Assembly: GCF_044647545.1 (NCBI RefSeq)
Contig: NZ_CP172818.1
Origin: Escherichia coli
GTDB lineage: Bacteria > Pseudomonadota > Gammaproteobacteria > Enterobacterales > Enterobacteriaceae
Length of the DNA: 64,000 bases
Direction: 5' to 3' (one strand)
Shown: piece after piece, positions 5,339 through 58,167 of the stretch
Numbering within the stretch: position 1 is the first letter of the stretch
Layout of the letters: every line of letters begins with the position of its first letter
Position numbers and translations under genes: made by a program
The notes under the pieces: model-generated
Told to the model about the DNA's origin: nothing
The model's input: the letters and a program-made list of their open reading frames with translations, nothing else
Database searches by the model: none

Positions 5339-6880
<1,542 letters not shown>

Positions 6881-6958
6881 CCTTAAAGAAGCGTACTTTG
6901 AAGTGCTCACACAGATTGTCTGATAGAAAGTGAAAAGCAAGGCGTAAGCAGACGATAC

Positions 6959-27896: not shown

Positions 27897-27922
27897 AAAA
27901 ACCCGCTTCGGCGGTTTTTTTA
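27897..27922 (+). terminator. rpoC intrinsic terminator
   Basis: AAAAACCCGC-TTCG-GCGGTTTTTTT. Confidence 0.8.
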
Positions 27923-28108
27923 AACAAATCCAGACTTTGCTTCACGGGAAATATTAAGAAAGGCAGGGCGAAACGAGGAAGAAGCTTTTCGCCCTGGACA
28001 ACATTCCTGCTGACGGCACTACCATAAAAAAACACAACGCTTTCAACAACCTTGCGTTTTTCATCTTCCGTAGCGGCTCGGAATAAATTTACGTTGTTAC
28101 ATTCTGTT

Positions 28109-45501: not shown

Positions 45502-47043
<1,542 letters not shown>

Positions 47044-47128
47044 CCTTAAAGAAGCGTACTTTGAAGTGCTCACACAGATTGTCTGATAGAAAGTGAAAAG
47101 CAAGGCGTCTTGCGAAGCAGACTGATAC

Positions 47129-47204
47129 GTCCCCTTCGTCTAGAGGCCCAGGACACCGCCCTTTCACGGCGGTAACAGGGGTTCGAATCCCCTAGGGGAC
47201 GCCA
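47129..47204 (+). tRNA. gltV: tRNA-Glu (UUC) in 16S-23S spacer
   Basis: Identical 76-nt sequence to gltT. Confidence 0.97.
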
Positions 47205-47399
47205 CTTGCTGGTTTGTGAGTGAAAGTCACCTGCCTTAATATCTCAAAACTCATCTTCGGGTGACGTTTGAGATATTTGCTCTTTAAAAATCTGGATCAA
47301 GCTGAAAATTGAAACACTGAATAGTCGAAAGATTATTCGTGAGTCTCTCAAATTTTCGCAACACGATGATGAATCGAAAGAAACATCTTCGGGTTGTGA

Positions 47400-50303
<2,904 letters not shown>

Positions 50304-50395
50304 ACAACGCCGAAGGTGTTTTGGCGGATTGAGAGAAGATTTTCAGCCTGATACAGATTAAATCAGAACGCAGAAGCGGTCTGATAAACAGAATT

Positions 50396-50515
50396 TGCCT
50401 GGCGGCCTTAGCGCGGTGGTCCCACCTGACCCCATGCCGAACTCAGAAGTGAAACGCCGTAGCGCCGATGGTAGTGTGGGGTCTCCCCATGCGAGAGTAG
50501 GGAACTGCCAGGCAT
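50396..50515 (+). rRNA. rrfE: 5S ribosomal RNA (rrnE operon), 120 nt
   Basis: Identical to rrfB copy. Confidence 0.97.
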
Positions 50516-50602
50516 CAAATTTAGCAGAAGCCCTGCGCTGGCGCACGCTCCAGCTTCACCGCGCGATAGCACTCGATAGGCGGTCGCACTTACCAGGCCA
50601 GC

Positions 50603-51046
50603 TTATTCCCCCACATATGCCAGATTCAGCAATGGATACGGTTTCCCCAAATCGTCCACCTCAGAGCGTCCCGTAACCTTAAAACCCATCTTCTTATAGA
50701 ACCCAACAGCCTGCTTATTTTGCTCATTAACATTGGTTGTCAGTTCCGGTGCCATCGAGAGCGCATGTTCCACCAGCATCCGGCCCACGCCACAACCGCG
50801 CGCATCAGGATCGACAAAAAGCGCATCCATATGCTGCCCACTTAACAACATAAACCCAACCAGCCGATCCCGCTCATTAACCGCGACCCACAACGGCGCT
50901 TCCGGCAAGAAGGAACGAACTAGCTCCTCCAGCTCGGCCCGATACTCTGCTGATAAAAAATCGTGAGTGGCATCGACAGAACGACACCAAATCGCAACGA
51001 GTTCCTCCCCTTCCTCATGCCGTGAGCGGCGAATACTAATAACCAT
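50603..51046 (-). CDS. yjaB: GNAT-family N-acetyltransferase YjaB, 147 aa
   Basis: ORF track; GNAT acetyl-CoA motif (R/Q-x-x-G-x-G/A: RGCGVGRML). Confidence 0.92.
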   Translation of the reverse strand: MVISIRRSRHEEGEELVAIWCRSVDATHDFLSAEYRAELEELVRSFLPEAPLWVAVNERDRLVGFMLLSGQHMDALFVDPDARGCGVGRMLVEHALSMAPELTTNVNEQNKQAVGFYKKMGFKVTGRSEVDDLGKPYPLLNLAYVGE

Positions 51047-51202: not shown

Positions 51203-52132
51203 ATGCCGATTCGTGTGCCGGACGAGCTACCCGCCGTCAATTTCTTGCGTGAAGAAAACGTCTTTGTGATGACAACTTCTCGTGCGTCTGGTCAGGAAAT
51301 TCGTCCGCTAAAGGTACTTATCCTTAACCTGATGCCGAAGAAGATCGAAACTGAAAATCAGTTTCTGCGCCTGCTTTCAAACTCACCTTTGCAGGTCGAT
51401 ATTCAGCTGTTGCGCATTGATTCCCGTGAATCGCGCAACACGCCCGCAGAGCATCTGAATAACTTCTACTGTAACTTTGAAGATATTCAGGAACAAAACT
51501 TTGACGGTCTGATAGTTACCGGCGCGCCGCTGGGCCTGGTGGAGTTTAATGATGTCGCTTACTGGCCGCAGATCAAACAGGTGCTGGAGTGGTCGAAAGA
51601 TCACGTCACCTCGACGCTGTTTGTCTGCTGGGCGGTACAGGCCGCGCTAAATATCCTCTACGGCATTCCTAAGCAAACTCGCACCGACAAACTCTCTGGC
51701 GTTTACGAGCATCATATTCTCCATCCTCATGCGCTTCTGACGCGTGGCTTTGATGATTCATTCCTGGCACCGCATTCGCGCTATGCTGACTTTCCGGCAG
51801 CGTTGATTCGTGATTACACCGATCTGGAAATTCTGGCAGAGACGGAAGAAGGGGATGCATATCTGTTTGCCAGCAAAGATAAGCGCATTGCCTTTGTGAC
51901 GGGCCATCCCGAATATGATGCGCAAACGCTGGCGCAGGAATATTTCCGCGATGTGGAAGCCGGACTAGACCCGGAAGTACCGTATAACTATTTCCCGCAC
52001 AATGATCCGCAAAACAAACCGCGAGCGAGCTGGCGTAGTCACGGTAATTTGCTGTTTACCAACTGGCTCAACTATTACGTCTACCAGATCACGCCATACG
52101 ATCTACGGCACATGAATCCAACGCTGGATTAA
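51203..52132 (+). CDS. metA: Homoserine O-succinyltransferase MetA, 309 aa
   Basis: ORF track. Confidence 0.96.
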
Positions 52133-55357: not shown

Positions 55358-55397
55358 CTGTAGGCCACGGATAAGGCATTTACGCCGCATCCGGCAA
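55358..55397. repeat. REP (repetitive extragenic palindromic) element between aceA and aceK
   Basis: CTGTAGGCCACGGATAAGGCATTTACGCCGCATCCGGCAA, canonical REP-like palindrome. Confidence 0.7.
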
Positions 55398-55423: not shown

Positions 55424-57968
<2,545 letters not shown>

Positions 57969-57991
57969 GACAGTCTCCTTTTTCTGTATCG

Positions 57992-58006
57992 TGGAAATCA
58001 TTTTCA
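57992..58006. promoter_or_regulatory. Putative IclR autoregulatory operator upstream of iclR
   Basis: TGGAAATCATTTTCA, near-palindromic match to IclR box TGGAAAT-N-ATTTCCA, 24-38 nt upstream of iclR start. Confidence 0.45.
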
Positions 58007-58167
58007 TTTTTATTGTTAGCTAATGCAATAGTTGCTGAACTGATCCGATGAGTTAATGTTGAACAAATCTCATGTTGCGTGGTGGTCGCTTTTACCACAG
58101 ATGCGTTTATGCCAGTATGGTTTGTTGAATTTTTATTAAATCTGGGTTGAGCGTGTCGGGAGCAAGT

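What the first reader, a model, noticed from the sequence alone, without database searches (positions are those of the whole stretch)
50516..50602. yjaA absent between rrfE and yjaB (second Clermont marker missing)
Only 87 nt separate the 3' end of the rrnE 5S gene (50515) from the stop codon of convergent yjaB (50603-50605). In K-12 this interval holds yjaA (b4011, ~127 aa), another Clermont phylotyping marker. With arpA also absent, the window implies an arpA-negative, yjaA-negative genotype, which is typical of phylogroup F, an atypical B2, or a non-K-12-like Escherichia lineage. chuA and TspE4.C2 are not in this window.
Basis: partly seen in the sequence, partly recalled or inferred. Interest (0 to 1): 0.4.

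Follow-up and report, generated by a model that had tools for sequence, protein, structure and literature searches.

The report
Ordinary yjaA-negative E. coli locus
This E. coli stretch really does lack the small gene yjaA next to a ribosomal RNA operon, but about half of all sequenced E. coli lack it too and it simply marks the strain as a phylogroup F (ST648-type) isolate, so the finding is correct and ordinary.

Summary
The 5S gene of rrnE ends at 50515, the stop codon of convergent yjaB is at 50603-50605, and 87 nt lie between them. K-12 carries yjaA (384 nt, 127 aa) in that interval. The 64-kb window holds no trace of yjaA or arpA by tblastn, blastn or in-silico Clermont primers.

The absence is unremarkable. 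Only 2594 of 5426 complete E. coli genomes carry yjaA. The window matches ST648 genomes (phylogroup F): outside the rRNA operons it has no isolated base substitutions against strain MS6198.

YjaA homologues sit in the same rrn-5S, yjaA, (yjaB), metA position in 16 other Enterobacterales species. Absence is therefore most likely a derived loss.

One oddity remains. Relatives have a 124-nt spacer with the rrnE terminator hairpin and a REP-like palindrome. The window's 87-nt version lacks both and matches none of the 5426 complete E. coli genomes searched (blastn, E <= 1e-3). It is one of five private, clustered changes, most at or beside predicted hairpins, in an otherwise identical background. 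I read that pattern as sequence or assembly error rather than biology, but this cannot be proven without reads.

Already known; low interest.

The parts
45502..50515 (+). rrnE operon: 16S (45502-47043), a tRNA (47129-47201; annotated tRNA-Glu at this position in K-12 and MS6198), 23S (47400-50303), 5S (50398-50515)
   Evidence: Rfam matches at gathering score. purD and purH lie upstream as in K-12 rrnE.
50516..50602 (.). 87-nt rrfE-yjaB spacer. It holds no yjaA, no terminator hairpin with a T-run, and only a disrupted REP-like palindrome. It is a private allele.
   Evidence: Sequence. No terminator-like site in the spacer. The fold is no better than shuffles, z = +0.14, against z = -3.86 for the 124-nt allele of relatives. 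No blastn match in 5426 E. coli genomes. It is collinear with the relatives' allele but carries two deletions, one insertion and small changes.
50603..51046 (-). yjaB, a GNAT lysine acetyltransferase, intact and convergent with rrnE
   Evidence: ORF. 93.8% identical to K-12 YjaB. NCBIfam PRK10514 at E 3.7e-82 and Pfam GNAT domains. The exact protein is widespread in public assemblies.
51203..52132 (+). metA, the conserved right-hand anchor of the locus
   Evidence: ORF. Annotated metA in all relatives. Downstream of yjaA homologues in 16 other species.
55424..58007 (.). aceK and convergent iclR directly abutting, with no arpA between them (first Clermont marker absent). The aceK 3' end carries a private 21-nt deletion plus substitutions at 57119-57134.
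   Evidence: ORFs. K-12 has arpA between aceK and iclR. No ArpA hit and no ArpA1.r primer site. Patch details.

Best explanation
The window comes from an Escherichia coli of the ST648 clone (phylogroup F). In this lineage, as in about half of sequenced E. coli, the interval between the 5S gene of rrnE and the convergent acetyltransferase gene yjaB holds only a short non-coding spacer, not the 127-aa stress-response gene yjaA.

Nothing 'works' here beyond transcription termination. In relatives the spacer supplies the rrnE terminator hairpin with its U tract, followed by a REP-like palindrome. The yjaA-negative, arpA-negative state is a lineage marker, not a functional device.

YjaA homologues occupy the same rrn-5S, yjaA, (yjaB), metA position in distant Enterobacterales. 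The empty site is therefore most likely an old loss or replacement of an ancestral gene, inherited by the lineage (inference).

The extra shortening from 124 to 87 nt, which removes the terminator, is private to this sequence. It is most likely a sequence or assembly error at a hairpin-rich spot (inference).
For: Shown:
- Coordinates and gene identities.
- K-12 has yjaA at this site.
- No yjaA or arpA trace in the window.
- yjaA is present in 2594 of 5426 complete genomes.
- The nearest genomes are ST648 strains at 99.8% with the same gene order. ST648 is phylogroup F (PMC12736214, PMC8339308).
- yjaA-negative spacers of O157:H7, a pig isolate and the ST648 strains align as one allele family, mean column identity 84% with the window's aberrant allele included.
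- 16 species from Escherichia whittamii to Pectobacterium, Brenneria and Samsonia have a YjaA homologue directly upstream of metA. yjaB lies between in 6 of them, and 5S is upstream wherever the contig reaches.

For the error reading of the 87-nt form:
- Against MS6198 over 64 kb, every difference outside the rRNA operons falls in four clustered patches: 27915-27939, 50531-50598, 55366-55367 and 57119-57134. A fifth, a 7-nt deletion, lies in the rrnB spacer. There are no isolated substitutions in the roughly 53 kb outside the rRNA operons.
- The three patches searched are private among 5426 genomes: the spacer has no match, and the aceK-iclR and rpoC-downstream patches reach 82.8% and 87.1% at best. 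The other two were compared with only one or two ST648 genomes.
- All five lower the predicted local folding energy.
- Five genomes encoding the identical YjaB all have the 124-nt spacer.
Against: - chuA and TspE4.C2 lie outside the window, so the full quadruplex genotype was not determined here. The phylogroup rests on nearest-neighbour identity plus the literature.
- The direction of the event (loss rather than gain) is inferred from synteny in other genera. The scan did not return E. fergusonii, E. albertii or even E. coli's own representative genome, so its recall is imperfect.
- The claim that the 87-nt form is an error cannot be tested without reads. Part of it, the ~30-nt deletion between CGCTGG.GC direct repeats, could be natural replication slippage.
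Confidence: 0.9

Rival explanations
1. The 87-nt spacer is a real, strain-private rearrangement that removed the rrnE terminator. rrnE transcription would then read through antisense into yjaB until stopped by Rho or by downstream structure. It would be one of several hairpin-targeted rearrangements in this strain.
For: The spacer is collinear with the relatives' allele, and one deletion lies between short direct repeats, as replication slippage would produce. All five private patches lower the predicted local structure, and most sit at or beside hairpins, which are known hot spots for slippage and template switching (the hot-spot point is established knowledge).
Against: - Five complex multi-event patches against no isolated substitutions in about 53 kb is not a natural mutation spectrum.
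- The three patches searched are absent from 5426 genomes.
- The changes would damage conserved elements: a G to T change in the rpoC terminator stem, loss of the rrnE terminator, and loss of the aceK stop codon, giving a 588-aa product found nowhere in a 153-billion-gene index.
Confidence: 0.12
2. Absence of yjaA is the ancestral state of E. coli, and yjaA-positive lineages (B2, part of A) gained the gene by insertion next to rrnE.
For: The yjaA-positive and yjaA-negative alleles share no similarity between the 5S end and the last codon of yjaB, as expected for a cassette-like replacement. The scan returned no E. fergusonii or E. albertii locus. The E. whittamii YjaA is 100% identical to K-12's, which hints at exchange between lineages.
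Against: Homologues at 41-72% identity occupy exactly this site, 5S then yjaA then (yjaB) then metA, in Kosakonia, Phytobacter, Franconibacter, Pectobacterium, Brenneria and Samsonia. An independent insertion at the same spot is unlikely.
Confidence: 0.12
3. yjaA is present but has moved elsewhere in the same genome, so the strain would still type yjaA-positive.
For: None found. The window covers only 64 kb.
Against: No trace in the window. Genomes that have yjaA carry a median of one copy. ST648, the clone the window belongs to, is assigned to phylogroup F (PMC12736214), whose quadruplex profile is yjaA-negative (from memory, not re-read here).
Confidence: 0.02

Closest known systems
yjaA-negative allele of the rrfE-yjaB interval, as scored in Clermont triplex and quadruplex phylotyping (phylogroups B1, D, E, F and part of A)
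   Same: No yjaA ORF and no primer sites. The short non-coding spacer is collinear with the 116-127-nt spacers of O157:H7, a pig isolate and the ST648 strains. yjaB and metA are intact.
   Different: The window's spacer is 87 nt instead of 116-127. It lacks the terminator hairpin with its T-run, and the REP-like palindrome is disrupted.
E. coli ST648 / phylogroup F genomes (MS6198 NZ_CP015834.1, strain ST648 NZ_CP008697.1, FDAARGOS_497 NZ_CP033850.1)
   Same: Identical sequence over the roughly 53 kb outside the rRNA operons apart from four clustered patches. Same gene order, arpA and yjaA both absent, and identical YjaB protein.
   Different: Five clustered patches differ: 6945-6953, 27915-27939, 50531-50598, 55366-55367 and 57119-57134.
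K-12 MG1655 rrfE-yjaA-yjaB locus (b4010-b4012)
   Same: Same flanking genes and orientation. yjaB is 93.8% identical at protein level.
   Different: K-12 has a 520-nt interval with its own terminator hairpin and the 127-aa YjaA-family stress-response gene (NCBIfam NF041448). K-12 also has arpA between aceK and iclR.

Membership tests
Clermont yjaA-negative genotype | No 211-bp yjaA.1b/yjaA.2b amplicon | tested here: met
   No site for either primer at up to 4 mismatches in the window. The K-12 control gives 211 bp (primers from PMC10132334 Table 1). This applies to the 64-kb window only.
Clermont yjaA-negative genotype | No YjaA-family coding sequence at the rrfE-yjaB site | tested here: met
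   tblastn best E = 1.3 anywhere in the window, blastn word 7 gives chance hits only, and the spacer is 87 nt.
E. coli phylogroup F (quadruplex profile arpA-, chuA+, yjaA-, TspE4.C2-; the profile is recalled from Clermont et al. 2013, not re-read here) | arpA absent between aceK and iclR | tested here: met
   aceK and iclR abut. No ArpA tblastn hit and no ArpA1.r site, while AceK.f is present.
E. coli phylogroup F | chuA present | not testable with these tools
   The chuA locus lies outside the 64-kb window.
E. coli phylogroup F | TspE4.C2 fragment absent (and the phylogroup G marker absent) | not testable with these tools
   These loci lie outside the window. The primers have no site in the window, which is uninformative.
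E. coli phylogroup F | Whole-sequence nearest neighbours belong to a phylogroup F clone | tested here: met
   99.8% identity to ST648 genomes, with no isolated substitutions outside the rRNA operons against MS6198. ST648 is phylogroup F (PMC12736214, PMC8339308).
Intrinsic (Rho-independent) terminator downstream of rrnE | G+C-rich hairpin followed by a T-run just after the 5S gene | tested here: not met
   Relatives have GGCCATCC-GTCA-GGATGGCC followed by TTTTT. The window lacks it, its fold is no better than shuffles (z = +0.14), and no terminator-like site lies in the spacer.
REP-like palindrome in the yjaA-less spacer | Imperfect palindrome GCCGGCTGCGACGCTGGCGCGTCTGCTCCAGC able to fold | tested here: not met
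   The 5' half is deleted in the window. The relatives' hairpin appears in the minimum-energy fold, and the window's does not.

The most novel reading that the evidence does not exclude
The ST648-type source strain truly carries a terminator-less rrnE 3' end, together with four other hairpin-centred rearrangements. These include a weakened rpoC terminator and an AceK with a new 14-residue-longer tail. That would point to a hairpin-specific mutational process acting without ordinary point mutation, and to rRNA operon read-through antisense to yjaB.
Probability: 0.08. Interest if true: 0.5.

Novelty: already known. Interest (0 to 1): 0.08.

Why it matters
It matters little. Presence or absence of yjaA has been a standard phylotyping character of E. 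coli since the triplex PCR of 2000, and absence is the commoner state among complete genomes. The practical value is that the window can be placed confidently in the ST648 / phylogroup F clone, a globally spread multidrug-resistant extraintestinal lineage.

Two by-products are mildly useful:
- The synteny data indicate that the marker records loss of an old Enterobacterales gene, not gain of an accessory one.
- The 87-nt spacer and four other private patches flag probable local sequence errors. Anyone using this assembly for terminator, REP or aceK analysis should know about them.

Tried and rejected
- **Hidden or degraded yjaA.** tblastn and blastn (word 7) of K-12 yjaA with its flanks against the window gave only chance hits. 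Rejected.
- **Spacer borrowed from elsewhere in E. coli.** blastn (word 11) of the 95 nt against 5426 genomes gave no match at E <= 1e-3. Rejected.
- **Spacer as a local inversion of the relatives' allele.** k-mer comparison with the reverse complement gave only scattered 6-mers, whereas the direct comparison is collinear. Rejected.
- **RNA gene or small ORF in the spacer.** No Rfam match at gathering score. ORFs crossing it are antisense or overlap the 5S gene and are spurious.
- **Search for the private allele in JGI metagenome contigs.** No hit. The control pattern from the adjacent, unaltered yjaB end also gave no hit, so both scans are uninformative.
- **Look-up of the window's 588-aa AceK in the public gene index.** Not on record. 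I also looked up a 287-aa IclR, thinking its stop had changed. That was my mistake: it is only the longer upstream-start ORF, iclR is intact, and the hits were ordinary arpA-positive genomes.
- **Simple terminator scan.** It also missed the obvious hairpin in the relatives, probably because the stem absorbs part of the T-run. I relied on folding instead.

Full report
**1. The observation**

Rfam finds a complete rRNA operon in the window: 16S at 45502-47043, a tRNA at 47129-47201, 23S at 47400-50303 and 5S at 50398-50513. K-12 and the ST648 relatives annotate tRNA-Glu at that position. The mature 5S 3' end (...CCAGGCAT) runs to 50515 in the sequence.

The next real gene is a 147-aa ORF on the minus strand at 50603-51046. 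It is 93.8% identical to K-12 YjaB and matches NCBIfam PRK10514 at E 3.7e-82 and the Pfam GNAT domains. metA, aceB, aceA, aceK, iclR and metH follow. purD and purH precede the operon, which makes it rrnE in K-12 terms.

**2. The comparison with K-12**

MG1655 has a 520-nt interval between rrfE and yjaB that holds yjaA (b4011, + strand, 384 nt, 127 aa). It also has arpA between aceK and iclR.

- K-12 YjaA and ArpA give only chance-level tblastn hits anywhere in the window (best E 1.3 and 0.098). blastn with word size 7 finds nothing.
- I took the Clermont quadruplex primers from Table 1 of PMC10132334. The window has a perfect AceK.f site (56750) but no site for ArpA1.r, yjaA.1b or yjaA.2b at up to four mismatches.
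- The K-12 control gives the expected 400-bp and 211-bp products.

The window is arpA-negative and yjaA-negative.

**3. How unusual this is**

It is not unusual. K-12 yjaA finds a match in 2594 of 5426 complete E. coli genomes, while the yjaB-metA flank is present in 5425. About 52% of complete genomes therefore lack the gene.

Among yjaA-negative genomes the interval between the annotated 5S gene and yjaB is 116-127 nt (O157:H7, a pig isolate, FDAARGOS_497) or 282 nt in one variant. These spacers align with each other as one allele family; mean column identity is 84% even with the window's aberrant allele in the alignment. They share nothing with the yjaA-positive allele between the 5S end and the last codon of yjaB.

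**4. Which lineage**

The 11.4 kb from yjaB to metH is 99.8% identical, in one piece, to strain 'ST648', MS6198, FDAARGOS_497, ECONIH1 and others. ST648 is described as a lineage of phylogroup F (PMC12736214) and as a dominant phylogroup F sequence type (PMC8339308). Those genomes have the same yjaA-less and arpA-less arrangement.

chuA and TspE4.C2 are outside the window, so the full genotype was not determined here.

**5. Gain or loss**

A scan of one genome per species for YjaA relatives returned 16 loci. They come from Escherichia whittamii, Phytobacter, Superficieibacter, Kosakonia, Franconibacter, an Enterobacter sp., Entomohabitans, Samsonia, Pectobacterium, Brenneria and two unnamed Enterobacteriaceae genomes assembled from metagenomes.

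- In all 16 loci metA lies just downstream, and in six yjaB lies between.
- Wherever the contig extends upstream, 5S or 23S rRNA is found there. Elsewhere the contig simply ends within a few hundred bases, as assemblies do at rRNA operons.

The arrangement 5S, yjaA, (yjaB), metA therefore predates Escherichia, and the empty site is most likely a derived loss or replacement. This is an inference. The scan works from exact peptide words and did not even return E. coli's own representative genome, so absence from its list proves little.

**6. The unexpected part**

The window's 87-nt spacer is not the lineage's spacer.

- Five public genomes encoding the identical YjaB protein, plus strain ST648 and MS6198, all have the same spacer, 124 nt between the annotated 5S gene and yjaB. 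It contains GGCCATCC-GTCA-GGATGGCC followed by TTTTT, then a REP-like palindrome.
- That allele folds at -55.9 kcal/mol (z = -3.86, 0 of 200 shuffles as good). The window's spacer folds at -24.8 kcal/mol (z = +0.14).
- The window's version is collinear with the 124-nt allele. It lacks 20 nt of the terminator hairpin and about 30 nt of the palindrome, the latter between CGCTGG.GC direct repeats. It has 13-15 extra nucleotides near yjaB and several small changes.
- It has no blastn match in any of the 5426 genomes.

**7. Context for that oddity**

I aligned the whole 64 kb to MS6198. Inside the two rRNA operons there are differences of the kind expected between operon copies. Outside them there is not one isolated substitution in about 53 kb.

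All remaining differences fall in four tight patches:

- 27915-27939, just after the rpoC terminator, including a G to T change in its stem.
- 50531-50598, the spacer itself.
- 55366-55367, a CA insertion in the stem of the REP between aceA and aceK.
- 57119-57134, a 21-nt deletion plus substitutions that remove the aceK stop codon.

A fifth patch is a 7-nt deletion in the rrnB 16S-tRNA spacer (6945-6953).

The aceK-iclR and rpoC-downstream patches, like the spacer, are private among the 5426 genomes (best full-length identities 82.8% and 87.1%). The other two patches were compared only with one or two ST648 genomes. The resulting 588-aa AceK is not on record in a 153-billion-gene index. Each of the five patches lowers the predicted local folding energy.

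Five complex events against no isolated point mutations is not what divergence or recombination produces, and most of them sit at or beside hairpins. I therefore read them as sequence or assembly errors, or some other non-biological alteration of the record. I give roughly 10% to the alternative that they are real.

This cannot be settled without reads. Two metagenome scans were uninformative, because the control pattern from the unaltered yjaB end also found nothing.

**8. Verdict**

The finding is correct and its interpretation is supported, but it describes a textbook typing polymorphism in a well-known clone.

- The only thing here not already known is the private 87-nt form of the spacer, which is more likely an error than a discovery.
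- YjaA itself is a small protein with no Pfam family. It matches NCBIfam NF041448, 'YjaA family stress response protein'.
- I tested nothing about its function. The reports of peroxide, cadmium and acid sensitivity in mutants are from my memory of the literature.

Noticed in passing
window 27915-27939: Private clustered change just downstream of rpoC: a G to T change in the terminator stem (CGGCGGG to CGGCGGT), plus about 20 substituted or deleted bases. The best full-length match in 5426 E. coli genomes is 87%.
   Followed up: partly
window 57119-57134 (aceK 3' end, 55424-57190): A 21-nt deletion plus about 10 substitutions remove the normal aceK stop codon. The ORF becomes 588 aa (574 in ST648 relatives, 578 in K-12) and overlaps iclR by 47 nt. 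The product is not on record in the public gene index. iclR itself is intact.
   Followed up: partly
window 55366-55367: A 2-nt 'CA' insertion in the stem of the REP element between aceA and aceK (GCCGGAT becomes GCCACGGAT). It weakens the predicted hairpin by about 5 kcal/mol and is absent from the two ST648 genomes compared (strain ST648 and MS6198).
   Followed up: partly
window 6945-6953 (rrnB 16S-tRNA-Glu spacer): A 7-nt deletion (CTTGCG plus T) just upstream of tRNA-Glu in the rrnB copy only. The rrnE copy in the same window has the standard sequence.
   Followed up: no
L014/L015 (NZ_CP008697.1, strain ST648, 276082-281658): In this public assembly the rRNA operon next to yjaB is preceded by btuB-murI, the rrnB upstream flank, rather than purH. 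The ~41-kb rrnB-rrnE interval (murB ... rpoBC ... purH) is therefore missing at this place. This is either a rearrangement between the two operons or a misassembly.
   Followed up: no
L003 (NZ_AP022478.1, strain STN0717-11), locus 715-996: A third length class of yjaA-negative spacer, 282 nt. It contains a second copy of the 5S 3' end followed by a different rrn-type terminator region, then the usual spacer.
   Followed up: no
L024 (Escherichia whittamii Sa2BVA5, NZ_JACSQI010000001.1) 145-525: The YjaA of this cryptic-clade species representative is 100% identical in protein sequence to K-12 YjaA. That is unexpectedly close for a different species and suggests exchange across lineages or a classification issue.
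   Followed up: no
window 46508-46523 and 6345-6360: Both 16S copies in the window carry the same 8-base variant (TCCGGATT against CGTACGAG in MS6198) at one site. This is consistent with a variant spread between the operon copies by gene conversion.
   Followed up: no
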